Below, in pieces: positions 10,498-23,027 of a DNA stretch of 64,000 nucleotides (positions are counted from its first letter, which is position 1; each line of letters opens with the position of its first letter). The position numbers and the translations under genes are program-made. Source of the DNA: a virus (taxonomy: Duplodnaviria > Heunggongvirae > Uroviricota > Caudoviricetes); the IMG/VR virus record IMGVR_UViG_3300028577_000006; one strand, given 5' to 3'. The notes beneath the pieces were generated by a model. That model saw only the letters and a list, made by a program, of their open reading frames with translations. It did not search any database and was not told the origin of the DNA.

Positions 10498-11241
10498 TCA
10501 CAGGGCGCACAACGCGGCAACAAGATCTTGTTCCGCGGTCCCAGTGACCTCCAGCGTCCACGGCGTCGGCGGCCCGAGCCACGATGCTGGATCAATGCGC
10601 ACGAGCGGCGTGGCGCGCTGCGCTGCACGCGTCGGCAGATCGTTCGCTGGGTACACCGAGCCGGACGTGCCGCAGACGACCACGAGATCTGCTGCCTCCA
10701 CCGCCGCGTAAGCGCGCCGCATGTCGACTGGCTCGCCGAATAGGACCACGTCAGGCCGCGCAGGACGGCCGCACTTCGGACAATCCGGCGCCACGGTGCG
10801 CGGCTCGGCGTCCGGCCACGACGGGTGCTTGCGGCGCTCCTTGGCGCAACGCGTACGAAAGAGCGAGCCATGAAGCTCCACTACGTCTTCGGTGCCGGCC
10901 AAGCGGTCGAGACCGTCGATGTTCTGCGTCACGACCGTCAGTGCCTCGACGCGCCTCGACCAGGCAGCAACCGCACGGTGCGCGGCGTTCGGTCCGTTCG
11001 CGAGCACGGCGCCGCGGATTGGTCCCCATAGCTCCCAGAGGTCGTTCCACCATGCCCGACGCTCGGCCGGATCGCTCATCTTGGCCGGCGGCGGCTTCGA
11101 TCGCTTCTCCCGCTCGGGATGGTCGGTCCAGAGACCACCGGAGCCGCGGTACGTCGGCAGCCCCGACGCCACCGAGAAGCCGGCGCCGGTGACGAGCACG
11201 GGCCTGCGAGCGCGGCGCACGAGCGCTTCGAGATCACTCAT
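10498..11241 (-). CDS. Sir2-family NAD-dependent deacylase/ADP-ribosyltransferase
   Basis: GAGFSVASGLPTYRG, TQNIDGL, two CxxC pairs; internal ATG at 11241; upstream part of ORF overlaps a tRNA. Confidence 0.8.
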   Translation of the reverse strand: MSDLEALVRRARRPVLVTGAGFSVASGLPTYRGSGGLWTDHPEREKRSKPPPAKMSDPAERRAWWNDLWELWGPIRGAVLANGPNAAHRAVAAWSRRVEALTVVTQNIDGLDRLAGTEDVVELHGSLFRTRCAKERRKHPSWPDAEPRTVAPDCPKCGRPARPDVVLFGEPVDMRRAYAAVEAADLVVVCGTSGSVYPANDLPTRAAQRATPLVRIDPASWLGPPTPWTLEVTGTAEQDLVAALCAL

Positions 11242-11311
11242 TCGGGGGCCAGGAATCGAACCTGGATTCGCGGTGCCAAAAACCGATGTCCTGCCATTAG
11301 ACGAACCCCGA
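11241..11311 (-). tRNA. tRNA-Gln (anticodon UUG)
   Basis: cloverleaf with T-arm CCAGG-TTCGATT-CCTGG, anticodon loop TTTTGGC, U1:A72 as in bacterial tRNA-Gln; U7.C66 mismatch shared with the tRNA-Gln(CUG) at 25138. Confidence 0.55.
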
Positions 11312-11314
11312 GCA

Positions 11315-11692
11315 TCACGCCGCGGGGGCTCGTTGCTGCTCGGCCTGAGCCTTCGCGGCGAGCTTCTGCTGGCGGCGCTCAGCGGCACGCGCCTTCACGA
11401 GCGCGCGCTGCTTGGCGTTCTTCTTCGTGTTCGCACGACAGAGCTTGCAGTTGGTCGCGAGCATCGACAGCACCAAACGCGTGCCGTCTTCCGGCCACCC
11501 GCCGTCCGACTCCTGCTCCACCGACACCTTCGACGGCTTCATGCCGGCGGCCTCGGCCATCTGCACGAGATCGACCAAGCTGCCGCCGCAGTCATCGATG
11601 TTGATCGTACACGTGTCCTGAACGCGATTGCGCCAGTCGGCGGAAACGCCGTGGCTCACGTACGGAACGATCTTCTTCTTGGCCACACACAC
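11315..11692 (-). CDS. hypothetical protein
   Basis: ORF between two tRNAs; annotated ATG overlaps tRNA-Glu 3' end by 5 nt, GTG at 11686 is an alternative start. Confidence 0.4.
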   Translation of the reverse strand: MCVAKKKIVPYVSHGVSADWRNRVQDTCTINIDDCGGSLVDLVQMAEAAGMKPSKVSVEQESDGGWPEDGTRLVLSMLATNCKLCRANTKKNAKQRALVKARAAERRQQKLAAKAQAEQQRAPAA

Positions 11693-11758
11693 CGTGGGAG
11701 AATCGAACTCCCGTAGACTGATGGAAAGTCAGTCGTCCTACCACTGGACGAACGGTGC
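11688..11758 (-). tRNA. tRNA-Glu (anticodon UUC)
   Basis: complete cloverleaf: acceptor GCACCGT/ACGGTGT, D GTCC/GGAC, anticodon stem ACTGA/TCAGT loop CTTTCCA, T GGGAG-TTCGATT-CTCCC. Confidence 0.8.
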
Positions 11759-12048
11759 AAAATCTTCGAGCAAGGGTCGCGCACGGGTATGGGCCTCGCG
11801 GCCCGATCTTTTGCAAAAAGGGATAACCGTGTTGCATCGGCTCGAAGATCAGAAACAAAACAGAGCAAGGTTTTGAACGCGGGCGGTTGGGTCGGGTTAT
11901 TAGCCCGATGCATGATTGCGGTAACCCGTGATCGTCGGCTCTGTCGAAAATCCTTTCAGAGATAGTAGCGGACGGTGATAACACAGGCAAGGTGGTGCTG
12001 GACGGGTCAAATGATAGATAACCGTCCAGCTTCGGCCTGTGCGTTAGA
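11759..12048 (-). ncRNA. candidate Y RNA (YrlA-like) locus downstream of rsr
   Basis: 290-nt non-coding, lower-GC, hairpin-rich region immediately 3' of rsr and abutting a tRNA: long-range pairing 11763-11771/11840-11848, hairpins at 11791-11804, 11939-11962, 11997-12030; the only support is position next to rsr. Confidence 0.35.
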
Positions 12049-13803
12049 TCAACCTCGGATGAAGTCGGCGATGACCGCCGGAGCCGCAGCGTCCATGCCC
12101 ACGACGTCGAGCATGCCCGCGTCGGTCGGATCTGCGATGGTGAACGGCGAGGCTGCCGTGGCCACGACCACGAGCTTCGCCGGGATGTTCGTCTTCTGAC
12201 GATAGCGCTGGAGCGCGATGTGCGGGTGCACCTTGCCCGCGTACGTCTCGTTGTCGGTGTAAACGCAGAACGCTTCGAAGGTCTTGTCGCCTTCCAACGC
12301 GTAAAGCATCGGCTGCGAACAGTCGGTCGAGCCCATCGGCAGAGCGCGCATGATCTGCAACGCCTGTTCGAGCTTCGTGGACTTGGTGATGTTGATGGGA
12401 GTCGTGCCCGCGCCCGCGCCCGCGCCACGGCCGCCGCCGGACGTGAAGCCGATCATGTGCGTGCTCTCTTCCACCCGTGCGGTCACCATGGCCATGACGG
12501 CCACTGCCTCACGGTGGGTGATGCACGAGTTCATGATCGGCGAGTCCATCGAGCCGGAGATGTCCAACGCGAGCAGGTGCGACTTGCCCGTCGACTCCAC
12601 CGACTCGAACGCCGTGTAGAAGACGCTGTCGAGCGCATCGACGATCGGCTTCACCGCCGACCAGGTCAACGTACCCTTCTCGCCATGGCCCTGTGCATAC
12701 GTACGCAGCGCCAGAAGCACTGCGAACGGGTGCAGCCGCGACTTCTTGATCGCGTCGTAGTTGGTGAGCTTGTCGATCACGCGCTTCGACGCATCCGACT
12801 TCGGCGTGAGGAGACCGTTCGCCGTCATGCGGCCGAGGTTGCGCACGAGCGCATGCATCGGCATCGAGTCGAGCAGCGCATCCCAGGTCTCCGGCTTGCC
12901 GAGGAACTGCGACGGCACCATCTCGTGCGTCAGGCGATGCTCACGGATGAGCTTGAGCAGCGTCGTGTAGTCGACGTCCGGCTTCCGGATCGTCTCGAAT
13001 GCGCCGATGAGTCCCGGCATGCCGTCTCGCGACAACGCCGGCTGACGCTCGGTGAGCGAAGCTGCGAAGTCCTTCGCGGACAGCGAGTCCACGCCAGCAG
13101 CATGACGACGGTGCGCACGCGCTGCCTGATCCTTGCGCTGGATGGAGCGCTCGTCGAGTGAGCCTGCCACGACCCAGCGGAAGAGCGCCGACATGACCGT
13201 GTCGTCACTCTTCGGGTGAGCCTGACGCATCACGTCGCGGTGCGACCGTCCGTTGCGCTGCTGGTACTTCACCAGCTGGTATGCGAGCGAACCCGGATCA
13301 CGCGACGTGTACCACGCCGCGACCGCGCGCTTCAGCGCCGAGCCCCAGCCGCGAAGCTGCTCGACCTGGTCGATGAACTCGAACAGGTGCGCGCCGGTGC
13401 GGCAGACACGCGGCAACGCCGCGAGCGCAAGGCGACGCACGACCACATCCCCGTGGGACGCAGCGATTGCCAGCGCGAAGATCGCCGGGCTGTTCTTCGG
13501 CGCTCGGCCGGACTCGCTCACCGCAGCGATCTGCTCGATCGCCGCCGCCGCGTCATCCGCCAGACACTCCGTGAGCGCCTTCGCGTTCTCGCGCACGAGC
13601 TTCTTCTCCGTCGAGTGGTACGTGCCACCCTCGGCGCCGAGCACGAGGAATCGATCCAGCTGCTTCCAGCGATCGACCTCGAACGTGAAGCCGCCAGCGT
13701 TGTTCTTCACCTGGCGCGGATCGGCCTTCGCCATCTGCGTCGCGTTGGCGTTGACGCCGGACTTCTTGCCCGACTTGGTAACGTGCTGTGCGTAGTTGGA
13801 CAT
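12049..13803 (-). CDS. rsr: Ro60-like ribonucleoprotein Rsr (TROVE domain + C-terminal vWA)
   Basis: 584 aa; TROVE-like N-terminal two thirds and C-terminal LALDISGSMDSP MIDAS motif; classic 60-kDa SS-A/Ro architecture. Confidence 0.85.
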   Translation of the reverse strand: MSNYAQHVTKSGKKSGVNANATQMAKADPRQVKNNAGGFTFEVDRWKQLDRFLVLGAEGGTYHSTEKKLVRENAKALTECLADDAAAAIEQIAAVSESGRAPKNSPAIFALAIAASHGDVVVRRLALAALPRVCRTGAHLFEFIDQVEQLRGWGSALKRAVAAWYTSRDPGSLAYQLVKYQQRNGRSHRDVMRQAHPKSDDTVMSALFRWVVAGSLDERSIQRKDQAARAHRRHAAGVDSLSAKDFAASLTERQPALSRDGMPGLIGAFETIRKPDVDYTTLLKLIREHRLTHEMVPSQFLGKPETWDALLDSMPMHALVRNLGRMTANGLLTPKSDASKRVIDKLTNYDAIKKSRLHPFAVLLALRTYAQGHGEKGTLTWSAVKPIVDALDSVFYTAFESVESTGKSHLLALDISGSMDSPIMNSCITHREAVAVMAMVTARVEESTHMIGFTSGGGRGAGAGAGTTPINITKSTKLEQALQIMRALPMGSTDCSQPMLYALEGDKTFEAFCVYTDNETYAGKVHPHIALQRYRQKTNIPAKLVVVATAASPFTIADPTDAGMLDVVGMDAAAPAVIADFIRG

Positions 13804-13844
13804 GACGGAACCTCCCAGAACGAATACCCAGAAAACCAGAACAA

Positions 13845-13917
13845 CGTCTCGTGCGAGAATCGAACTCGCGTCATCTGTTCGAGAAACAGAGGGCCTGGGC
13901 CACTAGCCGAACGAGAC
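13845..13917 (-). tRNA. tRNA-Glu (anticodon CUC)
   Basis: acceptor GTCTCGT/ACGAGAC, anticodon stem TCTGT/ACAGA loop TTCTCGA, T GCGAG-TTCGATT-CTCGC. Confidence 0.85.
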
Positions 13918-13945
13918 ACAGACAGAATAGAAAACCGAAGAAGCG

Positions 13946-14599
13946 CTACTGCTTACGCCGACCGATTCGTTTTCGCGCAATACCATAAGCATCAAGCCAT
14001 TTTCTGATCGTTACGTCAGACACGCCATATTCGCGAGCCAGCGCCAGCGCAGGCTTGTCAGCAACGGCTTCCAACTGCGCTCGCGATGGCTTTGCCACGC
14101 GCTCGGCGCTGTGGGAGCGCTGCCGCGCGCGACCCAAGCGCTCGCTGCTGCAAGCAACACACCGCCGCTTCGCGCCTCCAGCCTTCGTAACTTCGATCCA
14201 CACGTTCGCCGGATCTTCCAAACTGTGTCCGGACTTGCACTCCGTTTTTCGAGAGTTGAGACCAACGAAGCCCTCTCCGCGCCGCAGATTTATTCCGTCG
14301 GTTACCGGCTCTAGGTGAGAGGGCTTCACGCACAGGTGCACGCGACACAGGTGGTCAAGCACTTGCCACTCTTCCAGCGGCAGGCCCGAAGCGATGTACG
14401 CGATCCGGTGCGCGTACCGCGTTTCGTGTGGAGCCAGAATAAACACACCGTACGGCTCCGGGTTCAACCGGTTTTCCTTGCTGCGTGAACTGCCACGCCA
14501 CAGCCAGCAGCCGTTGTCAGCTAACTTCTCGACGAGAGACCAAAAGGCCGCCTTCTGGCCTTCGTCCATGTCACGAATCAGCTGGTCTTTTGCTACCAT
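13946..14599 (-). CDS. HNH homing endonuclease with C-terminal HTH
   Basis: NGCWLWRG ... HRIAY ... HLC motifs of HNH_3; C-terminal DNA-binding helix; sits between tRNA genes. Confidence 0.75.
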   Translation of the reverse strand: MVAKDQLIRDMDEGQKAAFWSLVEKLADNGCWLWRGSSRSKENRLNPEPYGVFILAPHETRYAHRIAYIASGLPLEEWQVLDHLCRVHLCVKPSHLEPVTDGINLRRGEGFVGLNSRKTECKSGHSLEDPANVWIEVTKAGGAKRRCVACSSERLGRARQRSHSAERVAKPSRAQLEAVADKPALALAREYGVSDVTIRKWLDAYGIARKRIGRRKQ

Positions 14600-14606
14600 A
14601 TATGAA

Positions 14607-14691
14607 CGGAGAGCAGAGGACTCGAACCTCAGAGCCTAAGCTCGACGCGGTTTTCAAAACCGCCGCTGCACCTTGCAGACCGTTACTCTCC
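14607..14691 (-). tRNA. tRNA-Ser (anticodon UGA), class II with atypical D-arm
   Basis: acceptor GGAGAGT/GCTCTCC, anticodon stem GCGGT/ACCGC loop TTTGAAA, extra arm GAGC-TTAG-GCTC, T-loop TTCGAGT; D-arm does not fold canonically. Confidence 0.5.
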
Positions 14692-14732
14692 AGGAGCCTG
14701 CCACAGCATTTCGCAGCAGGCAAGAACTTCTG

Positions 14733-14984
14733 TCAGACACTCGTTCCGGCACGTTTTGCGGCGCGACGGATGCGCTTCCTGACGAACTCGGCGACCTCCT
14801 TGGTGTCCGCCAGATCGAGCATGCCGCCGCGGTTCACGCAGCTGTTGTATGGGTGCCAGAACTGGCCGTACTGCAAGAAGTCTTCGGCGTCTGACATCAC
14901 GCAACCACAGCGGCGGCAAACGGCTTTGCGATGCCAGTTCTCGCCGTTCATCTTTCGCATCTTCTCGCTGAGCATGGCGATCAC
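14733..14984 (-). CDS. small zinc-finger protein
   Basis: CRRCGC ... H..C Cys/His cluster. Confidence 0.4.
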   Translation of the reverse strand: MIAMLSEKMRKMNGENWHRKAVCRRCGCVMSDAEDFLQYGQFWHPYNSCVNRGGMLDLADTKEVAEFVRKRIRRAAKRAGTSV

Positions 14985-15092
14985 TCCTTCAGCAGGCCGT
15001 CCCAGTTCCCGCGAATGTAGTCCTTGTACCGGATCTGATTTCCGGAACGGTGGTCGGTGACCTGCCCGTCCTGAGCGCGGATCGTACGCACC

Positions 15093-15666
15093 TTATCGGC
15101 ACTCGCCACTGCCTACCTGCTGCCGGCGACTGTCGGACCGGGCCTGCAAGCTCGCAGCGTCTCGTTGCTCCTGGATGCGCGCTCGGAGGATCTTGTACGC
15201 GATGTCTCTGTTCGCGTGCTGCGAGCGCTCGTTCTCGACGCGCACCTTCAGCCCGGTTGGCTTGTGCGTCATCTGAACAGCAGAGTTCGTCACGTTGCGA
15301 TGCTGGCCACCAGCGCCAGAGCCACGACACGTGATCCACTCGATGTCGCGATCGTCGATGTGGATCTGCGGGCCCTTCGGCTCGTCGAGCACCGCGACCG
15401 TCACCGTCGAGGTCTGCACGCGCCCGCGCTTGTCGTTCGGCGGCACACGCTGCCACCGATGACCACCAGACTCTTGCGCGAAGGCCGCGCTCGCTCCCTT
15501 GCCGCTCGCCTGGAACGACAAGAAGCCGGAACGCTCTTCGACTAGAGCGTAGTCAAAGACCCCTCCGCTCCATCATCCGCGCGTACACGCCGAACTGCTC
15601 GACCACGAGGGCCTTCGCATCGTCGCCACCTTCGCCAGCACGAATCTCTACGATCACCGTTTCCAT
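15093..15666 (-). CDS. truncated class-I release factor homolog (RF2/PrfH-like, GGQ domain) requiring +1 frameshift
   Basis: ORF 15553..15831 (from internal ATG 15666, SD GAGGAGG) encodes ETVIVEIRAGEGGDDAKALVVEQFGVYARMMERRGL and stops at UGA; the +1 frame continues as DYALVEERSGF...HRWQRVPP...RGSGAGGQHRNVTNSAVQMTHKPTGL...ENERSQHANR (ORF 15093..15521), together matching RF2 domains 2-3 incl. GGQ; lacks domain 1 and has PPN in place of SPF. Confidence 0.7.
15550..15572 (-). promoter_or_regulatory. prfB-type programmed +1 ribosomal frameshift site (GGAGGGG-U-CUU UGA C)
   Basis: mRNA reads AUG AUG GAG CGG AGG GGU CUU UGA CUA C: SD-like GGAGGGG 1 nt upstream of slippery CUU U followed by in-frame UGA C, same heptamer as E. 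coli prfB. Confidence 0.7.
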
Positions 15667-15676
15667 CACGACCTCC

Positions 15677-16573
15677 TCAGAGAACCACACGGGCGCGAAG
15701 CCCGTCCAACATGTACTTGATGTCGCGCTCCACCAAGCGTCGAAGCCCCTCGCACTCGGTGCACACGGTACGCGTCCGAAGATCTTCGCCGTGTTCGCAG
15801 TACGGCGGCACACGTCTGATCGAGAAGTCATCGTCGAGACTGAGCCTCAGCGTCGCGCCGTCGAAGTCGTGTCCGATCAAACGATGTCGAAAGACAGCGC
15901 TTTGAACGTCTACATGCTCGACCACGTGACACTTCGGCGTGCTGGCACTGCCCTTCTGACGGATCTCCACGAACGCACCAGGCCGGAGCGACTGCCACGT
16001 CAGCCGCTTCTCCTCGGCCGCTTCCCGCTTTCGACGACTCTCCTCTTCTTCGTACTCCAGAGCTTCGCGCGCCCATTCAGCGCGCTCCTCCGGCGTGTTC
16101 TCGTCGGGGAACTCCTTCAGCATCTCCGGCGCGCAACGCTGCGCGACCTTCTCGTTCTCACTCTTCTCGTGCTGCGTGCGCTTGCCGCGCTTGTAGACCT
16201 CGCGGTAGCTGTAGACGCCCGTCTTCGAATCGCATGACCAGGAGTGGCCGACGATCTCGACCTTGATGTCGAGCCCGTCGAAGAGCGCGCGTCCCTTCCG
16301 GAAGTCGTCGGTGAACTTGCTCTTCTTCTCGAAGAACAACCCCGGAGTGCCGCTGAAGTTGCCGAGTAGCTCGACGTACTTGTCCGTCTCGCGCAGCGCG
16401 ACGTTGTACCAGATGCCACCCGATCCGTACGCGTGGTTGCCGAGCTTGCTCACCATCGGCCACGAGTAGTAGCCATCGCGTCGTCCGCCAAAGGCTGGCT
16501 TAGTGGCCTTCTTCTTCCACTTCGCGCGATCTGGTCCGCTGACCCGAACTCGGTACTGCCACGTGTCGCCCAT
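15677..16573 (-). CDS. hypothetical protein (298 aa)
   Basis: stop overlaps SD of release-factor homolog; protein-like composition. Confidence 0.5.
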   Translation of the reverse strand: MGDTWQYRVRVSGPDRAKWKKKATKPAFGGRRDGYYSWPMVSKLGNHAYGSGGIWYNVALRETDKYVELLGNFSGTPGLFFEKKSKFTDDFRKGRALFDGLDIKVEIVGHSWSCDSKTGVYSYREVYKRGKRTQHEKSENEKVAQRCAPEMLKEFPDENTPEERAEWAREALEYEEEESRRKREAAEEKRLTWQSLRPGAFVEIRQKGSASTPKCHVVEHVDVQSAVFRHRLIGHDFDGATLRLSLDDDFSIRRVPPYCEHGEDLRTRTVCTECEGLRRLVERDIKYMLDGLRARVVL

Positions 16574-16586
16574 TCACTACCTCACA

Positions 16587-16668
16587 TGGAAAGCGGAGGA
16601 GTCGAACCCCTGCGCCGAAGCGCCGCTGGTTTTCGAGGCCAGTCCTACACCGCGTAGGTTCACCTTCC
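16587..16668 (-). tRNA. tRNA-Ser (anticodon CGA), class II
   Basis: anticodon stem CTGGC/ACCAG loop CTCGAAA, long extra arm, T-loop TTCGACT. Confidence 0.65.
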
Positions 16669-16677
16669 AAAGACACA

Positions 16678-16759
16678 CGGAGAGAGCAGGAATCGAACCT
16701 AAACGCCGAAGCGTCAACCGGGTTCCAACCGGTCCTCAGACCATCCGAGATCACCCTCC
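16678..16759 (-). tRNA. tRNA-Ser (anticodon GGA), class II
   Basis: anticodon stem ACCGG/CCGGT loop TTGGAAC, extra arm GACGC-TTCG-GCGTT, T-loop TTCGATT. Confidence 0.7.
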
Positions 16760-16911
16760 ATCACGCCGGCACTGTTGCTCAATCAACCGTTTCTCTCGCT
16801 TCTTGAAGCGACGCTTGACTCGTCGCTTCTCCGCGGCGGGCGCGGTCTCCCACCACTCAGGATTCTCATGCTTTGGATTGTGCAGAAGATGCTTCTTCAT
16901 GACTGTGCCAG

Positions 16912-16995
16912 CGGAAATCGGAGGTCTCGAACCCCACGGCCGTAACCGCGACATCGTGTAGCACACGAGCCCAGCACCTCGCTGGTTCGACTTCC
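16912..16995 (-). tRNA. tRNA-Ser-like (anticodon GCU), class II, atypical
   Basis: acceptor GGAAGTC/GATTTCC, D CCAG/CTGG, T-loop TTCGAGA; anticodon arm ambiguous (loop GTGCTAC). Confidence 0.45.
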
Positions 16996-17002
16996 AAAGG
17001 AA

Positions 17003-17470
17003 CTACTTCTTGCCGGCGAGCTTCCGCAGCCGAGGCAGCAGAGGCTTCACCAGCACATCGAACGTGGTCCAGTACGCGACAAGCAGCTTGCGCCGCTTGA
17101 ACGACGGAAACCACAGCGCGATACCGATCGCCTCCACGTCGCGCAGCGTGGTCGCGGTGTCGTCGCTGGTATGCTCGAAAATATGGTTGAGACAGAGCGC
17201 GTGGCCACCGAGCACGGCCTGACGCGCGAAGCGCAGGTGCACGCTACTGCTGCACACGCCATGTCCCGCATCGACACCAGGCCCCTTGCGCACCGAGGCC
17301 CACAGCCTCCCGTCGCATCGAGGACCAGCGCCGTGCCCGTCGCACCAGGGGACATGACAGACTTCCCGTCGTAGGCGTCGCAGGACTTGCCGTCGCCTGA
17401 TGCGCCCGAGCGCCTCGTGGGCGACGCTTCGGATTGGACTCGCCGGCAAGCCGGCCCCACGCACCTTCAC
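17003..17470 (-). CDS. hypothetical protein (start uncertain)
   Basis: C-terminal half protein-like; N-terminal part Arg/Gly-rich and overlapped by other frames. Confidence 0.3.
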   Translation of the reverse strand: MKVRGAGLPASPIRSVAHEALGRIRRRQVLRRLRREVCHVPWCDGHGAGPRCDGRLWASVRKGPGVDAGHGVCSSSVHLRFARQAVLGGHALCLNHIFEHTSDDTATTLRDVEAIGIALWFPSFKRRKLLVAYWTTFDVLVKPLLPRLRKLAGKK

Positions 17471-17509
17471 GAGCAGCTGAAGCCCTCGCGTTCGAGCCCA
17501 ACGGAGGGC

Positions 17510-17686
17510 TCACCAGTACCAACCCGCGTCTCGTCGAGGCGGGCCGATCCGTTCGTACTTCTTCGTGCGCAGCAGATGCTTGGTGCGCGCGCGGTAGCGC
17601 TGGTTCAGCCAGCGGCGATACCAAGACGGCGAGCCGTCAGGGAAGCGGCTGTGATCGTAGCCGCGATGATGAAACGTTCGAGCCAT
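17510..17686 (-). CDS. small basic protein (58 aa), paralog of 18231..18404
   Basis: MARTFHHRGY...SWYRRW...GWYW; 5' leader with hairpin CCGGAG-UUUUUU-CUCCGG followed by SD GGAGGA. Confidence 0.45.
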   Translation of the reverse strand: MARTFHHRGYDHSRFPDGSPSWYRRWLNQRYRARTKHLLRTKKYERIGPPRRDAGWYW

Positions 17687-17753
17687 CGTGTCCTCCGGCC
17701 CGGAGAAAAAACTCCGGATACCTAGAACACGGCACCCTTTCTGTCGTGCTGCG

Positions 17754-18113
17754 TCATACGCTGCTTTCCCTTCGCTCCAGAAGCTCTGCGCTCGGAACGA
17801 TGAGCCCGGCCTTCTCCGCCTCTTCGCGGAGCACGCCCATCGCACAGTGACACGGGTTGCCGTCGCACCAGCCGCCGGAAGAGATCCCAGTGTCTTCACA
17901 GATCGTGCACTCGATGCCCTTCTCTTCGCGCTGCTTCGCGCGCCACTCGTCGGTGTGACCCGTGTCGATGTCGCGGATCCCAGCGCTTGCGGCTTCGAGC
18001 ATCTCGATGGCCTGGTCGAACGCGGCCGAAAACCGAGCGCGGGCACGCACGAGCCTCAGCGCCGTGTCGCTGAACGCGTTCGAGACCCGCTCCGCTGCTC
18101 TGCGCTGCGTCAT
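17754..18113 (-). CDS. hypothetical zinc-binding protein
   Basis: CTICEDTG...CDGNPCHC cluster. Confidence 0.45.
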   Translation of the reverse strand: MTQRRAAERVSNAFSDTALRLVRARARFSAAFDQAIEMLEAASAGIRDIDTGHTDEWRAKQREEKGIECTICEDTGISSGGWCDGNPCHCAMGVLREEAEKAGLIVPSAELLERRESSV

Positions 18114-18153
18114 GTTCCTCCGACGGTGTCAGACACTGTTGCGCACGTCAAGA

Positions 18154-18225
18154 TCGGGGTGACAGGAGTCGAACCTGCCGGATCCAGTCCCCCAGACTGG
18201 CGGTCTGCCTCTGACCAACACCCCG
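18154..18225 (-). tRNA. tRNA-Pro (anticodon GGG)
   Basis: acceptor CGGGGTG/CACCCCG (shared with the other two Pro tRNAs), anticodon stem CCAGT/ACTGG loop CTGGGGG. Confidence 0.85.
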
Positions 18226-18230
18226 ATGAG

Positions 18231-18404
18231 CTACCAGTAGTAGCCGTACCTCTTCTTCAGCAACGGCAGCACGTCGAAGCGGCCGGTGCGGATCATGTGC
18301 TTGCAGCGCGCTCGATGGAGCCGCGCCTTCATGCGACGATACGACGACGGTTCGAGACCGCGCTCCGCGCGCGCTCGGTTGTGGTGATGATGCGTGTGGG
18401 CCAT
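18231..18404 (-). CDS. small basic protein (57 aa), paralog of 17510..17686
   Basis: MAHTHHHHNRA...SYRRM...GYYW; same hairpin-plus-SD leader architecture. Confidence 0.45.
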   Translation of the reverse strand: MAHTHHHHNRARAERGLEPSSYRRMKARLHRARCKHMIRTGRFDVLPLLKKRYGYYW

Positions 18405-18495
18405 GGCTTTCTCCGGCCCGGAGGAGATCTCCGGGTCATAAGCGCATGACGCTGCTCTTCTTCTCCATGACGACCTCTCAGTGCTAGCATCGGAC

Positions 18496-18759
18496 ATGGC
18501 CGACGAAGATCTCTACGTGGACGAGACGCCGACCCGAGAAACGCATGCTTGCGCGTTCTGCGAGCAGCACATCGACGGCGATGAAGTGGTGCGACGGCAC
18601 GCGCGTCGCGGCTGGCTGCCGTACCATCCGGCCTGCGCGCCCGATGTCGAGGAAGGCTTCCAGTTCGGCTTCCGCATTCGCTGTGGCACGTTCTCCTACG
18701 ACAGTGGCAGCCGGAACCAGTTCCACCCGATGCGGTGGCGTCCGCCGAAGATCCTCTGA
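18496..18759 (+). CDS. small Cys/His-rich protein
   Basis: ATG at 18496 inside ORF 18481..18759; preceded by GTGCTAGCAT motif. Confidence 0.4.
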   Translation: MADEDLYVDETPTRETHACAFCEQHIDGDEVVRRHARRGWLPYHPACAPDVEEGFQFGFRIRCGTFSYDSGSRNQFHPMRWRPPKIL

Positions 18760-18760
18760 G

Positions 18761-18985
18761 TCACGTCGGCGGCACCGGCTTCCGCCGTGTCCGACCCATG
18801 CCGAAGTAGCCGCCGAACGACTCGCCGTCCGTACGACGCTCCGCGCGAGCGCCGATGCGCTTCCACTTCGAGCGCGAGCGCGCGATGTGCGGCGCGTCGT
18901 TGTCGCGACCGGGCATCCGCTTCCACTTGGGACCGTGTTCAGTCCGCTTCTCTTCGTCGCGCCGGTAGTTGTCGTGGTTGCTCAT
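18761..18985 (-). CDS. small basic protein
   Basis: SD GGAGAG 6 nt upstream of ATG. Confidence 0.35.
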   Translation of the reverse strand: MSNHDNYRRDEEKRTEHGPKWKRMPGRDNDAPHIARSRSKWKRIGARAERRTDGESFGGYFGMGRTRRKPVPPT

Positions 18986-19000
18986 GCTGCTCTCCGTAGT

Positions 19001-19516
19001 TCACGCCGCCGCCGCAAGATACGGACGCCACGTCTCGGGCACCGTGTTCAGGTCGAACTTCTTGCTGACGATCGGAAGCCAGTCGGGCTTCCTCGGAACA
19101 CGGAGAAGCGTCATGCCAGCTTCGGCCGGCGTGCGGTTCGCCTTCTTCGCGTTGCACACGTAGCAGGCCATCACGATGTTCTCCCACTCGGTCTTGCCAC
19201 CACGCGAACGCGGAAGCACGTGGTCGTAGTTCAGGCCGCGCGGCTCGAACGAGACGCGACAGTACTGGCACGTGTGACCGTCACGCAGCAGGACGTTCTG
19301 CCGCGAGAACTTGATCGAGACCTTGCGGACCCGACCCTTGCGCAGCTTCCGGATCACCGACGGCATCTGCATGATGACGCTCGGCGAGCGAAGCACTTCC
19401 GCAAGCTCCTCGACGACCTCGGCCTTGCTGTCGTAGAGCATGCACACGGCACGCTCCCAGCTGATGATCCGCTCCGGTCTGTAGAACATGTCCAGCACCA
19501 GTACTCTGTTTTCCAT
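19001..19516 (-). CDS. HNH endonuclease (McrA-like)
   Basis: CQYC ... NYDHVLPRSRGG ... WENIVMACYVCNAKK. Confidence 0.75.
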   Translation of the reverse strand: MENRVLVLDMFYRPERIISWERAVCMLYDSKAEVVEELAEVLRSPSVIMQMPSVIRKLRKGRVRKVSIKFSRQNVLLRDGHTCQYCRVSFEPRGLNYDHVLPRSRGGKTEWENIVMACYVCNAKKANRTPAEAGMTLLRVPRKPDWLPIVSKKFDLNTVPETWRPYLAAAA

Positions 19517-19533
19517 TGGACCCTGGCCTGTCT

Positions 19534-19616
19534 TGCGCGCAGCAGGAGTCGAACCTGCAAGTGCCGAAGCACGGCGGTGTTTGAAGCCGCTACGTTAGCC
19601 GTTCCGTCATGCGCGC
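19534..19616 (-). tRNA. tRNA-Leu (anticodon CAA), class II
   Basis: acceptor GCGCGCA/TGCGCGC, anticodon loop TTCAAAC, extra arm GTGC-TTCG-GCAC, T GCAGG-TTCGACT-CCTGC. Confidence 0.8.
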
Positions 19617-19699
19617 ATGTTGGTGTTTCGGTTCGAAGAGTATGTCGTAAGCGTCTGGGATGCAAGCCTTTCTGACCTCGTGCTAGCATCACGAGCATC

Positions 19700-20662
19700 A
19701 TGCCGATTCTCTACGCCACCGACCCTCGTCGCCTCGGCTACGTGTGCGACGACTACGACATGCCAGTCCGCGATCTGCTCACGGACAAGTGCTACCCGAA
19801 CTACTGCGTGGCCGAAGCGGCCGGCGTGAAGAACTGGGACTACGAATGCAACATCGACATTCGTTTCCCGGCCCCGATCGACGAAGCGCAGGCGGCCCCT
19901 GCGGGCACGTTCGTCTACGGCGGCGGCGATGATGGCAGTGGATGGGATGGCGGCAGCAGCTGGATCGGCGGTTCTCCGTGGCGCCGCCGTCGACCGGGCG
20001 CGCCGCCAAGCGGCGGGGGCCGCAGCGGTGGCGGCGGACCGGGCGGCACTGACCCGTCAGCATCCCCACCCAGCACGCCGCCTGGGCGCTCTGTCGACTG
20101 GAGACCCAGTCCCGGTCGCACGATCTTCCGGGGCGCCAGCACGCCAAGCAGTGGCAGCGGGATCCACACGAACCCCGCCGGCACCACCGGCGGCGGAGTC
20201 ACGCTGGTCGGGGACGGAACACAGAGCACCAACTCCACGCTCGCAACGACACCGGGCCGTGGCGGAGCAACGCTCATCGGCGACGGGACCCAGGCCGGCG
20301 GCAGCACGCTCGCGCGCGCGATGCAGCAGATGCAGCTCGTACCGCAGCTCCAGCGTGCGGCACCCATGCGGGAGACCACGCAGTACCAGGCCGCGCCTCA
20401 GCACTCCACCGCCGTCACCACGCGGCGCGACGACCGGCAATACCAGGCAAGCTCGCGCCCGTCGCAGACCGCGCTCACGACCTCGTCGGGCAAGGCCACC
20501 CTCACGACCGCACAACGCAGCGGGCTGACCAGCCGTGGAGGCGGAGGGCGAGTCTCGCGAGCAATGCACGGCCTCGGCGACTTCACGACGCAGACGCTTC
20601 CGGGCGCCGTGTTGCTGTTCGGCGGAGCGCTGATCGTCGGCAGCTACCTCGCGACGCGCTGA
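19700..20662 (+). CDS. low-complexity Gly/Ser/Thr/Pro-rich protein with C-terminal TM anchor
   Basis: preceded by GTGCTAGCAT motif and a 6-bp hairpin; several alternative-frame ORFs overlap (GC-rich low complexity), so moderate confidence. Confidence 0.4.
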   Translation: MPILYATDPRRLGYVCDDYDMPVRDLLTDKCYPNYCVAEAAGVKNWDYECNIDIRFPAPIDEAQAAPAGTFVYGGGDDGSGWDGGSSWIGGSPWRRRRPGAPPSGGGRSGGGGPGGTDPSASPPSTPPGRSVDWRPSPGRTIFRGASTPSSGSGIHTNPAGTTGGGVTLVGDGTQSTNSTLATTPGRGGATLIGDGTQAGGSTLARAMQQMQLVPQLQRAAPMRETTQYQAAPQHSTAVTTRRDDRQYQASSRPSQTALTTSSGKATLTTAQRSGLTSRGGGGRVSRAMHGLGDFTTQTLPGAVLLFGGALIVGSYLATR

Positions 20663-21189
20663 GCTTGGCTTCGCAGCGCGGCGTTCATCTGCGCGTGAGC
20701 AGCCGTACACTCGGCGCACCGACAGCCGCACGTGTACTTCGAATGCGTACCACACTTGGCTCGTCGATCGGGACTCGCTGCCCAGGCCTTTTTTGCTGAC
20801 GATGCTCCAGCGCACCGTTTTCCGCAGAACGCATCGGCAGTGGCGCCTCGCTTCTTGGCGGCAGCGCGTGCAGCGCGCCGTTCGCGCAGGAACACCACAC
20901 CACACTCTGCGCACGTAGTGGCGCAATACTTGTCCTCTTCCGGAAGACGTTTGTGATCTGCTGTGTGCTGAGCGGTAGACTTTATTTCCAGGTTGTCCGG
21001 CCTGTTATCACCTTTGTTCTCGTTTTGATGGTGCACTTCCTCGTCGCGGCGCAGCGCTCGGCCTAAGTGCGCTTCCATGACGAGACGATGTACGTACAGG
21101 GTGGCGCGCGATCCGTCCGACCTTTTCACCGAAAAGTATCGGTAACCGTTTGGCATGGTGTACGGTCCGTAACGCTTTTCTTCCGTCAT
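20644..21189 (-). CDS. HNH homing endonuclease
   Basis: YVHRLVMEAHLG ... EVHHQNENKGDNRPDNLE HNH_3 motif; annotated ORF start (21252) would overlap tRNA-Leu, so internal ATG 21189 used. Confidence 0.7.
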   Translation of the reverse strand: MTEEKRYGPYTMPNGYRYFSVKRSDGSRATLYVHRLVMEAHLGRALRRDEEVHHQNENKGDNRPDNLEIKSTAQHTADHKRLPEEDKYCATTCAECGVVFLRERRAARAAAKKRGATADAFCGKRCAGASSAKKAWAASPDRRAKCGTHSKYTCGCRCAECTAAHAQMNAALRSQAQRVAR

Positions 21190-21224
21190 TTTGCGCGTAT
21201 ACCATGTCACCACGTTTCTGTAAA

Positions 21225-21308
21225 CTGGGATCGACAGGAGTTGCACCTGCACGGGCTTTCGCCCACACGGCCCTCAACCGTGCGTGTCTGCTAGTTCCAC
21301 CACGATCC
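21225..21308 (-). tRNA. tRNA-Leu (anticodon GAG), class II; T-loop TGCAACT
   Basis: D region GTGGTGGAACTAGCAGACACG resembles bacterial tRNA-Leu; anticodon stem CACGG/CCGTG loop TTGAGGG; G at position 55. Confidence 0.65.
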
Positions 21309-21314
21309 CGCGAA

Positions 21315-21398
21315 CTGCCGAGAGGGGGAATCGAACCCCCACGGGATTTCTCCCACACGATTCTGAATCGTGCGCGTCTACCAGATCCGCCACCTCGG
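21315..21398 (-). tRNA. tRNA-Leu (anticodon CAG), class II
   Basis: acceptor GCCGAGG, anticodon stem CACGA/TCGTG loop TTCAGAA, T GGGGG-TTCGATT-CCCCC. Confidence 0.8.
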
Positions 21399-21408
21399 CC
21401 AAGGCACC

Positions 21409-21481
21409 ATGCACGACCAGAGGATCGAACTCTGCAAGGGCGGTATGTGACACCGCTGCCGTCTCCAGCTGGCTCGTCGTG
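21409..21481 (-). tRNA. tRNA-Val (anticodon CAC)
   Basis: acceptor GCACGAC/GTCGTGC, anticodon stem GCGGT/ACCGC loop GTCACAT. Confidence 0.75.
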
Positions 21482-21576
21482 CAGACAAAACGATCGTCAG
21501 CGACACGCTGAAGCAAACGAACGGCAGGCTCACAGCGCTCCGGCGTCCTCTCCACTGTCCTCATGCTGACGATCTA

Positions 21577-21648
21577 GTCGGGGTGGGGTGAATCGAACAC
21601 CCGGTTTCCTGTACCCGAAACAGGCGGAATACCACTTTCCTACACCCC
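21577..21648 (-). tRNA. tRNA-Pro (anticodon CGG)
   Basis: acceptor CGGGGTG/CACCCCG, anticodon stem CCTGT/ACAGG loop TTCGGGT. Confidence 0.85.
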
Positions 21649-21715
21649 GAAGAACACTGCGGTTCTGATCTCTCCTGAACGGATGCCTGAGCACGTAGCC
21701 TTCCAGGTCAGAACC

Positions 21716-21787
21716 ATCGCTACGGACGGAGTCGAACCGCCTTCTGCCACCCGTATGAGAGGTGTGCCTGACCGTCAGGTACGTAGC
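21716..21787 (-). tRNA. tRNA-Met or Ile2 (anticodon CAU), elongator type, short D-loop
   Basis: acceptor CGCTACG/CGTAGCG (C1-G72 paired), anticodon loop CTCATAC, T GGCGG-TTCGACT-CCGTC. Confidence 0.55.
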
Positions 21788-21826
21788 GTCATTGCGGCCC
21801 CGAGAGTCGCACTCGGTTGTCCTGGG

Positions 21827-22282
21827 TTATGAGCCCTGGCTGGCATCTCCACCTGCACCGCACAAGCTCTGCTCTTCAGACACGAAGATCGGTCCGTGAT
21901 GGCCTAGCCTCGCGCCACACGACCTTGAACACGCCACTGTCATCGTCTTGTTTCTACCGGCCCTAAGACGCAGTACGTACTCCTTTATTTCGAAGGGCTT
22001 CTTGCACCAGGCACAAAACCTGGTCACGGAAGGCTGTTCCTGGTGATGGCGCGAATGCTCGCCACGCATGACGACTTCCAGATTGCTTTCGTCGTTGTTC
22101 GTCTTGTCGTGATCAGCGTGGTGCACCACTTCACCCGGAAGCAGGAGCCGGCCAAGGCAGTTCTCGGCGATGACGCGGTGCAGCGGGTACAACCCCTTCG
22201 CGTTGCGTTTTGGATGCGGCGGATCGGTCCGCGCATACTTGTACCCGCCACCCTTGCACGTCGATGTGATCTCGAAGAGCAT
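21827..22282 (-). CDS. HNH endonuclease
   Basis: HHADHDKTNNDESNLEVVMRGEHSRHH HNH motif; C-terminal Cys pairs; embedded in tRNA array. Confidence 0.7.
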   Translation of the reverse strand: MLFEITSTCKGGGYKYARTDPPHPKRNAKGLYPLHRVIAENCLGRLLLPGEVVHHADHDKTNNDESNLEVVMRGEHSRHHQEQPSVTRFCAWCKKPFEIKEYVLRLRAGRNKTMTVACSRSCGARLGHHGPIFVSEEQSLCGAGGDASQGS

Positions 22283-22292
22283 TTTGCCACCA

Positions 22293-22364
22293 CGCTCTCG
22301 GAAGGAATCGAACCTTCGTTCCTGGCTTCGGAAACCAGTGCCCTATCCGCTGGACGACGAGAGC
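22293..22364 (-). tRNA. tRNA-Arg (anticodon CCG)
   Basis: acceptor GCTCTCG/CGAGAGC, anticodon stem CTGGT/GCCAG loop TTCCGAA. Confidence 0.85.
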
Positions 22365-22371
22365 AAGACAG

Positions 22372-22443
22372 CGTCCTCACAAGGATTCGAACCTTGAATG
22401 CAGCGTCCGTAGCGCTGAGTGATATCCGTTTCACCATGAGGAC
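22372..22443 (-). tRNA. tRNA-Arg (anticodon ACG)
   Basis: acceptor GTCCTCA/TGAGGAC, anticodon stem CAGCG/CGCTG loop CTACGGA. Confidence 0.85.
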
Positions 22444-22452
22444 AAAGGCACA

Positions 22453-22653: not shown

Positions 22654-22659
22654 TAGAAG

Positions 22660-23022: not shown

Positions 23023-23027
23023 GAAAG

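What the first reader, a model, noticed from the sequence alone, without database searches (positions are those of the whole stretch)
15093..15831. Release-factor homolog with a prfB-type programmed +1 frameshift site
Two adjacent - strand ORFs together encode RF2 domains 2-3 (EIRAGEGGDDAKALVVEQFGVYARMMERRGL | DYALVEE...HRWQRVPP...GSGAGGQHRNVTNSAVQMTHKPTGL...ERSQHANR). They are separated only by a +1 shift at the mRNA sequence GGAGGGG-U-CUU UGA C, the same SD-spacer-CUU-UGA-C heptamer used for autoregulatory frameshifting in bacterial prfB. Here it sits mid-protein rather than at codon 25, and the protein lacks RF domain 1 and has PPN where RF2 has the SPF codon-recognition tripeptide. That domain architecture matches PrfH/RF-H, the RtcB-associated release-factor homolog, and rtcB is 12 kb away. 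A release-factor paralog whose synthesis would depend on inefficient UGA termination has not to my knowledge been described.
Basis: partly seen in the sequence, partly recalled or inferred. Interest (0 to 1): 0.85.

Follow-up and report, generated by a model that had tools for sequence, protein, structure and literature searches.

The report
Frameshift-gated RF1-like release factor gene
A huge phage carries a shortened copy of the protein that ends translation, and the ribosome can only make it by slipping one base forward at an internal stop codon; the same device is conserved in about 200 related genes from phages and myxobacteria and appears not to have been described.

Summary
On the minus strand, an ORF starting at ATG 15666 ends at GGAGG-GGU-CUU-UGA-C (15566-15552), and the +1 frame continues into a GGQ release-factor domain. 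The labels were wrong. The product is RF1-like (prfA HMM 198 bits, prfB 133, prfH 82; fold TM 0.93 to ribosome-bound RF1). It lacks domain 1 and is neither RF2 nor PrfH; rtcB lies 11.5 kb away and is never a conserved neighbour.

Of 243 classifiable related loci from viral contigs, metagenomes and bacterial genomes (mostly Myxococcota), 204 need the same +1 shift at the same codon. The site is always CTT plus a stop: TGA about 70%, TAG 26%, TAA 4%. The next base is never T. GGAGG usually sits 3 nt upstream and is held by biased codon choice (CGG 87%, AGG 96%). This is a conserved prfB-type frameshift in a different release-factor family, at a different position.

A 2-nt deletion after codon 188 puts the last 38 conserved codons in another frame. 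It is unique to this phage but identical in five independent assemblies, so this copy may be defective.

The cassette most likely gates synthesis on slow termination. Whether that is autoregulation is unresolved.

The parts
15672..15676 (-). Ribosome-binding site (GGAGG) for the release-factor gene, 5 nt upstream of ATG 15666. The upstream gene's TGA stop is at 15679-15677.
   Evidence: Sequence read directly.
15553..15666 (-). ORF1 (zero frame): METVIVEIRAGEGGDDAKALVVEQFGVYARMMERRGL plus the UGA stop. It encodes the first strand and the alpha-5 helix of RF domain 2.
   Evidence: All homologs start ME[TS]VI[VI]EIR. Model: strand 3-10, helix 15-34.
15562..15566 (-). Internal Shine-Dalgarno-like GGAGG, 3 nt (GGU) upstream of the CUU shift codon. 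It is encoded by the Arg-Arg codons CGG AGG.
   Evidence: In 195 non-identical relatives, GGAGG is present in 62%, with a 3-nt spacer in 115 of 122. Arg codon CGG is 87% here (20% elsewhere in the genes) and AGG is 96% (7% elsewhere).
15552..15558 (-). +1 frameshift site CUU UGA C. Peptidyl-tRNA-Leu slips from CUU to UUU and the next codon read is GAC (Asp38).
   Evidence: CTT-T is invariant in 204 frameshift loci at the same codon. The base after the stop is C 83%, G 15%, A 2%, T 0%. The +1 frame is open for only 6 codons upstream in the window.
15093..15554 (-). ORF2 (+1 frame): DYALVEE...PPN decoding loop...GGQ...long helix...QQVGSGECR plus UAA. It covers the rest of domain 2, domain 3, and helix 149-184.
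15092..15107 (-). Second frame break: GGC GAG UGC CGA UAA G. This is a 2-nt deletion relative to intact relatives (GAG CGT GCC GAT AAG = ERADK). It lies in the loop after helix 149-184, which corresponds to the RF1 switch-loop region.
   Evidence: P0071 reads GSGERADKVRT and P0022 reads GSGERGDKVRT. The break is identical in five independently assembled contigs and absent from the other 194 non-identical frameshift loci.
14981..15100 (-). ORF3 (a further +1 frame): ADKVRTIRAQDGQVTDHRSGNQIRYKDYIRGNWDGLLKE plus UGA. This is the conserved C-terminal strands and helix of domain 4, reachable only by a second shift.
   Evidence: aligns to RF1 RTYNFPQxRVTDHR; strands 191-196, 201-204, 210-212; helix 213-217.
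21226..21309 (-). Phage-encoded tRNA-Leu(GAG), the tRNA type that decodes CUU by G:U wobble. It may participate in the shift; this is inferred, not shown.
   Evidence: The role of tRNA-Leu(GAG) in prfB slippage is established knowledge.

Best explanation
Window 15666-14981 (minus strand) encodes a domain-1-less, RF1-like class-I peptide release factor. It belongs to a large family found in huge phages and in Myxococcota chromosomes.

Making the protein requires a programmed +1 ribosomal frameshift of the prfB type. The ribosome arrives with CUU in the P site and a poorly terminating stop (here UGA followed by C) in the A site. The internal GGAGG, 3 nt upstream, pairs with the 16S rRNA tail. 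Peptidyl-tRNA-Leu re-pairs on UUU, and decoding continues with GAC in the +1 frame.

Because frameshifting competes with termination at that stop, output rises when termination at the cassette codon is slow. For this copy, that means when RF2 activity is limiting. The cassette therefore works as a termination-capacity sensor that gates synthesis of an extra release factor.

Shown: the cassette, its position, its conservation, and nucleotide-level selection on it. Inferred by analogy with prfB: the slippage mechanism and the inverse coupling to termination efficiency.

In this particular phage a fixed 2-nt deletion also separates the last 38 codons. The first shift alone gives a 189-residue product without the domain-4 strands. 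This copy is therefore probably impaired unless a second, unprogrammed-looking shift occurs.
For: Identity:
- Pfam PCRF (C-terminal half) plus RF-1.
- NCBIfam prfA 197.6 bits, prfB 133.3, prfH 81.8.
- PDB sequence hits cover RF1 residues about 87-316.
- AlphaFold model pLDDT 90.2. Best folds are ribosome-bound RF1 (TM 0.92-0.93, rmsd 1.7 A); RF2 0.80-0.85; PrfH 0.67.

Frameshift is real and conserved:
- 131 of 163 classifiable viral/metagenome loci and 73 of 80 genome loci need a +1 shift, at the same codon in all but 5 loci, always at CTT plus a stop.
- The 121 distinct fused products from the viral and metagenome loci are 216-243 aa, with GGQ and the decoding loop conserved.
- Uninterrupted relatives encode the same junction residues: P0088 CTG AGC = Leu-Ser; P0001 RRVFD = cassette minus one G.

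Selection at nucleotide level:
- CTT is 100% at the site but 10% of Leu codons elsewhere in these genes.
- CGG 87% and AGG 96% at the two Arg codons, against 20% and 7% background.
- GGAGG has a 3-nt spacer in 115 of 122.
- T never follows the cassette stop, whereas the real terminal stops favour TAAT and TGAT.

No alternative route to ORF2:
- The +1 frame is closed 6 codons upstream.
- No start codon lies in the +1 frame near the site.

The window uses the standard code: TGA ends 45 of 63 long ORFs, including the gene immediately upstream.
Against: - No expression, reporter or peptide data exist; the frameshift is inferred from sequence comparison.
- The factor has RF1-type decoding residues, yet its cassette stop is UGA, which RF1 does not read. 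The prfB autoregulatory logic therefore does not transfer directly.
- The cassette stop varies (TGA, TAG, TAA) without any correlated protein change, so what exactly is sensed is unclear.
- About 22% of cassettes have no SD-like 4-mer.
- The window's own copy carries a second frame break and may not yield an active protein.
- In a high-GC, TGA-rich system, frameshifting could be inefficient. M. smegmatis shifts only 6.6% on the prfB motif (PMC12421855).
Confidence: 0.75

Rival explanations
1. True autoregulation, as in prfB. The encoded factor itself terminates at its cassette stop, because the family has relaxed or omnipotent codon recognition (UAA, UAG and UGA). Any stop codon would then give negative feedback.
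For: - Stop identity flips between close relatives: 27 of 121 nearest neighbours differ, with TAA as the mutational intermediate. It correlates with no decoding residue, GC content or flanking-gene stop usage. That is expected if any stop works.
- Family-specific changes occur at decoding positions: invariant Glu12, Asp16 in place of the RF1/RF2 Glu, PxT Thr replaced by Asn in 26% (including the window), and the His before TS replaced by Gln in 55%.
Against: - Most members keep a canonical RF1-type PxT and the Gln/Thr third-base residues.
- An RF that accepts purine at both positions 2 and 3 would also read UGG (Trp).
- No biochemical data exist.
Confidence: 0.25
2. The window's copy is a decaying pseudogene. 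The family cassette is functional, but this phage's allele is inactivated by the 2-nt deletion and makes only a truncated, inactive protein.
For: - The deletion is unique among 195 non-identical frameshift loci.
- There is no slippery codon at CGA UAA G, and only a weak GGCGAG upstream.
- A shift at that site would lose the nearly invariant Asp190.
- Truncation removes three strands and the switch-loop region.
- The break is identical in five assemblies, so it is a genuine genomic state.
Against: - ORF3 remains open, and about 34 of its 38 aligned residues match P0071, at least as conserved as the rest of the protein.
- The allele is fixed in the population sampled.
- The first cassette and the start region are intact.
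- The deletion may simply be very recent.
Confidence: 0.5
3. A PrfH-like ribosome-rescue factor that works with RtcB on damaged ribosomes.
For: It lacks domain 1, as PrfH does. rtcB, a nucleotidyltransferase, a Ro60-like gene and 37 tRNAs share the region. A few family members have lost the PxT loop.
Against: - prfH HMM 81.8 bits against a cut-off of 166.65.
- PrfH structures rank far below RF1 and RF2.
- rtcB is 11.5 kb away with about 30 genes between.
- Clustering flanking ORFs across about 240 loci finds no conserved neighbour.
- The myxobacterial chromosomal copies sit among unrelated cellular genes.
Confidence: 0.05
4. Artefact. The frame change at 15555 is a sequencing or assembly indel, or the two ORFs are separate polypeptides, or the gene is read through under a TGA-sense code.
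For: A single window cannot by itself exclude a 1-nt error. Some distant relatives do carry in-frame TGA codons.
Against: - The same frame change occurs at the same codon in 204 loci from independent assemblies, and the cassette is nucleotide-identical in homologs of only 50% protein identity.
- Five independent contigs are identical to the window.
- Reading TGA as sense stays in the wrong frame and gives no homology.
- ORF2 has no start codon near the junction, and the fold needs both parts.
- The T-run is only 3 nt, too short for transcriptional slippage.
Confidence: 0.02

Closest known systems
prfB (RF2) autoregulatory +1 programmed frameshift
   Same: Same cassette grammar: an SD-like element 3 nt upstream, a CUU shift codon, an in-frame stop followed by C, and a +1 frame that encodes the rest of a class-I release factor. 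The same expected competition between termination and slippage applies.
   Different: - The host gene is RF1-like, not RF2.
- The site is at codon 37/38 in domain 2, not about codon 25 in domain 1, and the flanking protein sequence is unrelated. An independent origin is therefore likely.
- The stop is TGA, TAG or TAA, whereas prfB never has TAG in 8,164 genomes (PMC12421855).
- The product is not predicted to read the UGA in its own cassette.
Bacterial RF1 (prfA)
   Same: Best sequence and structure match. Domains 2, 3 and 4 are present, with GGQ, a PxT-type loop (PPT or PPN) and the RF1-type Gln and Thr that read the third base.
   Different: - No domain 1 (about 105 residues missing).
- It scores below the prfA equivalog cut-off.
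- Family-specific substitutions at the alpha-5 tip (Glu12, Asp16).
- His to Gln before TS in about half the members.
- prfA has no known programmed frameshift (PMC12421855, PMC5009743).
PrfH / RF-H with RtcB2
   Same: A class-I release-factor homolog lacking domain 1 and retaining GGQ.
   Different: PrfH always lies directly downstream of rtcB2 and has its own decoding-region signature (PMC1586002). Here the HMM fails its cut-off, the fold match is poor, there is no rtcB adjacency, and the decoding loop is RF1-like.
Mimivirus/Megavirus class-I release factor (Jeudy et al. 2012, PMC3521657)
   Same: A virus-encoded release-factor gene interrupted by internal stops. It needs recoding (a frameshift plus a readthrough), which is interpreted as tight feedback on termination-factor supply during infection.
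   Different: That factor is of the eukaryotic/archaeal eRF1 type in an amoeba virus. This one is a bacterial RF1 type in phages and Myxococcota, and the cassette matches the bacterial prfB consensus exactly.
Release factors of stop-codon-recoded phages (Borges et al. 2021, bioRxiv 10.1101/2021.08.26.457843)
   Same: Phage-encoded RF1 or RF2 near tRNA genes. Distant members of this family with in-frame TGA may belong to TGA-recoded phages.
   Different: Those are described as code-change accessories and no frameshift is reported. The window's phage uses the standard code, with TGA as its main stop.

Membership tests
prfB-type +1 frameshift cassette | CUU (or YUU) shift codon immediately before an in-frame stop | tested here: met
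   CUU UGA at 15558-15553. CTT-T is invariant in 204 loci.
prfB-type +1 frameshift cassette | Weak termination context (C after the stop) | tested here: met
   UGA C in the window. Across the family: C 83%, G 15%, A 2%, T 0%. Real terminal stops favour T.
prfB-type +1 frameshift cassette | Shine-Dalgarno-like element 3 nt upstream of the shift codon | tested here: met
   GGAGG-GGU-CUU. 3-nt spacer in 115 of 122 GGAGG-bearing loci, and biased CGG/AGG codon choice. About 22% of relatives lack it.
prfB-type +1 frameshift cassette | Located near codon 25 of an RF2 gene | tested here: not met
   Located at codon 37/38 of an RF1-like gene, aligned with RF1 ARRW|RVEI in domain 2.
prfB-type +1 frameshift cassette | Frameshift efficiency falls when the gene's own product is abundant (autoregulation) | not testable with these tools
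   Needs reporter assays with RF1, RF2 or the factor itself titrated.
RF1 (prfA equivalog) | Scores above the TIGR00019 / NF001859 cut-offs over the full length, including domain 1 | tested here: not met
   197.6 bits against 423.25, and 197.3 against 400. The match covers only profile positions 113-342.
RF1 (prfA equivalog) | PxT tripeptide and GGQ motif | tested here: inconclusive
   GGQ is present. The tripeptide is PPN in the window. Across the family it is Thr 65%, Asn 26%.
RF2 (prfB protein) | SPF tripeptide and a TIGR00020 score above cut-off | tested here: not met
   133.3 bits against 370. The loop aligns as PPN, not SPF.
PrfH / RF-H | TIGR03072 score above cut-off | tested here: not met
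   81.8 bits against 166.65. Fold TM 0.67, rank 47.
PrfH / RF-H | Immediately downstream of, and co-oriented with, rtcB2 (PMC1586002) | tested here: not met
   The upstream gene is an unrelated 298-aa ORF with no Pfam hit. rtcB is at 27120-28283. No conserved neighbour in about 240 loci.
PrfH / RF-H | Lacks domain 1, retains GGQ | tested here: met
   This feature is shared with the present family but does not discriminate.

The most novel reading that the evidence does not exclude
This is a third, previously unrecognised lineage of bacterial-type class-I release factors: short RF1-like factors without domain 1, in huge phages and Myxococcota. Their synthesis is gated by failure of termination itself. 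The gate is usually a convergently evolved prfB-like +1 frameshift, which can use UGA, UAG or UAA. In some members it is instead an in-frame stop that must be read through. Such a factor would act as an emergency or broad-specificity terminator, made only when ribosomes linger at stop codons. It would also include the long-sought RF1/UAG counterpart of prfB regulation.
Probability: 0.3. Interest if true: 0.88.

Novelty: new variant of a known kind. Interest (0 to 1): 0.8.

Why it matters
- **Breaks a textbook exclusivity.** prfB is the standard example of autoregulatory frameshifting and has been thought unique to RF2. A 2025 survey of more than 12,000 genomes found no such device in RF1 genes and never found TAG in the motif. 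This family places the same cassette in an RF1-like gene, at another position, with TGA, TAG or TAA.
- **Natural experiment.** It offers a way to ask what the cassette senses and how easily it evolves.
- **Phage biology.** It shows that huge phages, and myxobacteria, carry an extra, tightly gated termination factor next to tRNA and RNA-repair genes. This suggests that termination capacity is a contested or limiting resource during infection.
- **Annotation.** Gene callers currently split these genes into fragments labelled 'peptide chain release factor 1'.

Tried and rejected
- **Near-identical phage genomes.** Megablast against GenBank phages found none. Only tblastn found relatives.
- **Cassette stop versus other features.** I tested the PxT residue, the His/Gln before TS, every alignment column, GC content and flanking-gene stop usage. 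Nothing correlated except the trivial +1 codon.
- **Conserved operon partner, especially rtcB.** Clustering flanking ORFs from about 240 loci found none.
- **Suppressor tRNAs near the gene.** One tRNA(CUA) turned up in 166 loci, with no pattern.
- **Reinitiation or split-protein reading.** Rejected: there is no +1-frame start codon and both parts belong to a single fold.
- **TGA-sense code for the window.** Rejected: TGA ends most genes, and the frames differ anyway.
- **Transcriptional slippage.** Rejected: the T-run is only 3 nt.
- **Existing slippage-joined annotation.** The NCBI-sourced full-length homologs I checked (P0088; P0095 by sequence) are uninterrupted genes.
- **Genome-wide TGA recoding in relatives with in-frame TGA.** ORF-length statistics were not decisive. 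L083 and L211 end the same gene at TGA, which argues against recoding there.
- **Literature.** Four full-text searches and eight papers read found no description of this family.
Full report
**The observation**

On the minus strand the mRNA reads ...AUG GAG CGG AGG GGU CUU UGA C UAC GCU.... In the zero frame an ORF beginning METVIVEIRAGEGG ends ...MMERRGL-UGA. In the +1 frame the sequence continues DYALVEERSGF...GGHRWQRVPPNDKRGRVQTS...GSGAGGQHRN...ERSQHANR. The full pattern GGAGG-N3-CTTTGAC is found once in the 64-kb window (15566-15552), against 0.00 expected from shuffles. The heptamer alone is not unusual.

Two coordinate corrections are needed:
- **Start.** The start is ATG 15666, preceded by GGAGG at 15676-15672 and by the TGA of the upstream gene, as in every homolog. 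It is not the ATG at 15831.
- **End.** The gene does not end at 15093. ORF2 stops at QQVGSGECR-UAA, and the missing release-factor C-terminus (ADKVRTIRAQDGQVTDHR...GLLKE) lies in yet another +1 frame, ending at 14981.

**What the protein is**

I joined the three pieces into a 227-residue protein and compared it with known families.
- **Pfam:** it matches the C-terminal half of PCRF plus the RF-1 domain.
- **NCBIfam:** prfA 197.6 bits, prfB 133.3, prfH 81.8, all below their equivalog cut-offs.
- **Solved structures by sequence:** it aligns to RF1 residues about 87-316 (E about 1e-41). RF2 is at about 1e-25 and PrfH at about 1e-13.
- **Alignment with E. coli RF1 and RF2:** the protein starts exactly where domain 2 starts, and its PPN aligns with RF1's PAT rather than RF2's SPF.
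- **Structure prediction:** an AlphaFold model built on 49 sequences is confident (pLDDT 90.2). It superimposes best on ribosome-bound RF1 (TM 0.92-0.93, rmsd 1.7 A). RF2 gives 0.80-0.85 and PrfH 0.67, at rank 47.

The product is therefore an RF1-like factor without domain 1. It is neither RF2 nor PrfH. Domain-1-less RF1 is reported to be active in vitro and in vivo (discussed in PMC1586002).

**Genomic setting**

The window has 37 tRNA genes and RtcB at 27120-28283. It also has a nucleotidyltransferase at 28561-30657 and a Ro60-like protein at 12049-13803 (Pfam tags). The closest relatives of the gene are on 200-480-kb viral contigs. This is a huge phage, and the gene lies in its translation and RNA-repair island.

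The phage uses the standard code. TGA ends 45 of 63 long ORFs, including the gene directly upstream.

rtcB is 11.5 kb away, beyond the tRNA array. It is not the adjacent upstream partner that defines prfH operons.

**Comparative evidence for the frameshift**

A 485-kb uncultured phage (LR745208.1), whose protein is only about 50% identical, has the identical nucleotides CGGAGGGGTCTTTGAC at the same codon. I then ran profile-guided scans of three collections.

| Collection | Relatives found | Kept |
|---|---|---|
| IMG/VR viral contigs | 295 | 80 |
| JGI metagenomes | more than 465 | 80 |
| GTDB species genomes | 165 | 80 |

The genome hits are mostly Myxococcota and include the complete chromosomes of Archangium gephyra and Minicystis rosea. 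I classified each locus by the frame of the N-terminal EIRxGEGG motif against the GxGGQ motif. A +1 shift is needed in 131 of 163 viral and metagenome loci and in 73 of 80 genome loci.

- **Position.** In all but 5 of the 204 the zero-frame stop falls at the same codon.
- **Sequence.** The site is CTT plus a stop without exception.
- **Stop identity.** TGA about 70%, TAG about 26%, TAA about 4%.
- **Products.** The 121 distinct fused proteins from the viral and metagenome loci are 216-243 residues long, with GGQ and the decoding loop strongly conserved.

**Selection on the nucleotides**

The following figures come from 195 non-identical frameshift loci.

| Feature | At the cassette | Elsewhere in the same genes |
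|---|---|---|
| Leu codon before the stop | CTT 100% | CTT 10% of Leu codons |
| First upstream Arg codon | CGG 87% | 20% |
| Second upstream Arg codon | AGG 96% | 7% |
| GGAGG upstream | 62% of loci; exactly 3 nt before CTT in 115 of 122 | - |
| Base after the stop | C 83%, G 15%, A 2%, T 0% | real terminal stops mostly TAAT or TGAT |

Further points support a single shifted polypeptide:
- In the window, the +1 frame is open for only six codons upstream of the stop.
- No +1-frame start codon lies nearby.
- The two halves form one fold, with the junction in the loop between helix 15-34 and strand 38-45.
- Uninterrupted relatives encode the very residues the shift predicts. P0088 has CTG AGC (Leu-Ser), as a CTT TAG C shift would give. 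P0001 reads RRVFD, which is the cassette minus one G.

Sequencing error, pseudogenisation at this site, a split protein, transcriptional slippage and a TGA-sense code are all excluded.

**How it most likely works**

The cassette obeys the prfB grammar, so the prfB mechanism is the best inference:
1. CUU sits in the P site, and a slowly recognised stop sits in the A site.
2. An SD:anti-SD helix forms too close to the P site.
3. Peptidyl-tRNA-Leu re-pairs on UUU.
4. Decoding resumes at GAC.

The phage encodes a tRNA-Leu(GAG) at 21226-21309.

Frameshifting competes with termination, so production should rise when termination at that codon is slow. That makes the gene a sensor of termination capacity. 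What is sensed is less clear than in prfB. The factor looks RF1-like, yet 70% of cassettes, including the window's, use UGA, which RF2 reads.

The stop identity switches between close relatives (27 of 121 nearest neighbours differ). It shows no association with the PxT residue (Thr 65%, Asn 26%), the His/Gln before TS, any other protein column, GC content, or the stop usage of flanking genes.

Two readings remain. Either the cassette cross-senses whichever host factor reads the stop, or the family has relaxed codon recognition so that any stop gives feedback. I favour the general sensor reading and give strict autoregulation about 0.25.

In TGA-rich, high-GC systems RF2 is expected to be abundant. 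M. smegmatis shifts only 6.6% on the prfB motif (PMC12421855). Basal output may therefore be low, which would fit an emergency factor.

**Other architectures in the family**

| Architecture | Loci |
|---|---|
| In-frame stop at exactly the cassette codon (CTC/CTA TGA, TAT TAG), no frame change | 8 |
| In-frame TGA 6-14 codons downstream (viral and metagenome set) | 9 |
| Uninterrupted (viral and metagenome set) | 15 |

Three genome loci (L211, L220, L236) also have the downstream in-frame TGA. Some of the in-frame TGA cases are probably TGA-recoded phages. However, L083 and a Cupriavidus plasmid copy (L211) end the same gene at TGA, which suggests readthrough. A few members lack the PxT loop altogether. 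No neighbouring gene is conserved. In the myxobacterial chromosomes the neighbours are ordinary cellular genes.

**The second break in the window**

All other frameshift loci have a contiguous C-terminus, for example GSGMRGDKVRT, or GSGERADKVRT in P0071 at 81% identity. The window reads GAG--TGCCGATAAG where P0071's protein sequence implies GAG CGT GCC GAT AAG, which is a 2-nt deletion.

The truncated ORF2 (P0009) occurs on 7-8 JGI contigs. Five independently assembled contigs from five samples are identical to the window across the gene. The deletion is therefore real and fixed in this phage population.

It falls in the loop after helix 149-184, the switch-loop region. It separates off three strands and the terminal helix. 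The site CGA UAA G has no slippery codon, and a shift there would lose the nearly invariant Asp190. ORF3 is still open and well conserved.

I consider a recently disabled allele somewhat more likely than a second recoding event, but I cannot decide between them.

**Comparison with what is known**

- **prfB.** The cassette is a prfB-type cassette in all sequence features tested. It differs in host gene, position and the range of stops used. The flanking protein sequence is unrelated to the prfB site, so convergence is the simplest origin.
- **Literature on RF1.** Prince et al. 2025 report no programmed frameshift in prfA and no TAG in 8,164 prfB motifs (PMC12421855). Atkins et al. 2016 state that the RF1/UAG counterpart is unknown (PMC5009743). 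The GeneTack survey reports only the prfB cluster (PMC3711429).
- **Viral precedent.** The nearest case is the Mimivirus eRF1-type factor, which needs a frameshift and a readthrough (PMC3521657).
- **Phage release factors.** Phage RF1 and RF2 have been noted as code-change accessories, without any frameshift (bioRxiv 10.1101/2021.08.26.457843).
- **Databases.** Public databases call the fragments 'peptide chain release factor 1'.
- **Prior description.** I found none, but the search covers only open-access text.

**Verdict**

The frameshift site is real, conserved and under selection. The RF2 and PrfH labels are wrong. The window's own copy carries an extra, probably damaging deletion. I rate this a new variant of a known kind, with high interest for recoding and phage-translation specialists.

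Noticed in passing
window 12049-13803 (-), with tRNA-Glu 13844-13918 and HNH endonuclease 13946-14599: A 584-aa Ro60/TROVE plus vWA protein is encoded next to tRNA genes in the phage. Bacterial Ro60 orthologs usually work with a Y RNA. No Y-RNA family reached Rfam's gathering score in the window, and I did not look further.
   Followed up: no
window 11241-25674 (-), 27120-28283 (-), 28561-30657 (-): An array of 37 tRNA genes covers nearly all amino acids. It is followed by RtcB RNA ligase and a large nucleotidyltransferase (phrog_388). Together with the release-factor gene these form a translation and RNA-repair island.
   Followed up: partly
L016/L094 507-584 and L025 1448-1522: tRNA-like genes with an 8-nt anticodon loop (c-t-TAAG-c-a) lie 1.5-2.5 kb upstream of the frameshifted release-factor gene in two related phages. 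The loop contains AAG, which reads CUU, so it resembles a +1 frameshift-suppressor design. However, the anticodon stem is imperfect and the long variable arm of tRNA-Leu is absent.
   Followed up: partly
L083 (IMG/VR, 389 kb) and L211 (Cupriavidus sp. plasmid NZ_CP193795.1): These family members have an in-frame TGA about 40 codons in, yet the same gene ends at TGA at the homologous C-terminus. TGA therefore seems to be a true stop there, and the internal one would need readthrough.
   Followed up: partly
L015, L021, L024, L099, L101, L104, L124, L157: Eight relatives carry an in-frame stop at exactly the cassette codon (CTC/CTA TGA or TAT TAG) with no change of frame. This would be a possible readthrough version of the same gate. 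Their genetic code was not established.
   Followed up: partly
L168 (Archangium gephyra NZ_CP102578.1, about 3.543 Mb) and L194 (Minicystis rosea CP016211.1, about 5.21 Mb): Complete myxobacterial chromosomes carry the frameshifted gene among ordinary cellular genes (glycosyltransferase, sigma-70 factor, GDSL hydrolase), not in an obvious prophage. These cultured organisms could be used for experiments.
   Followed up: partly
L001 (LR745208.1) and L025: Some members have lost the PxT decoding loop entirely (QRTSNGR; QE----KSGGR) while keeping the frameshift cassette and GGQ. This raises the question of whether stop-codon reading is essential to the family.
   Followed up: no
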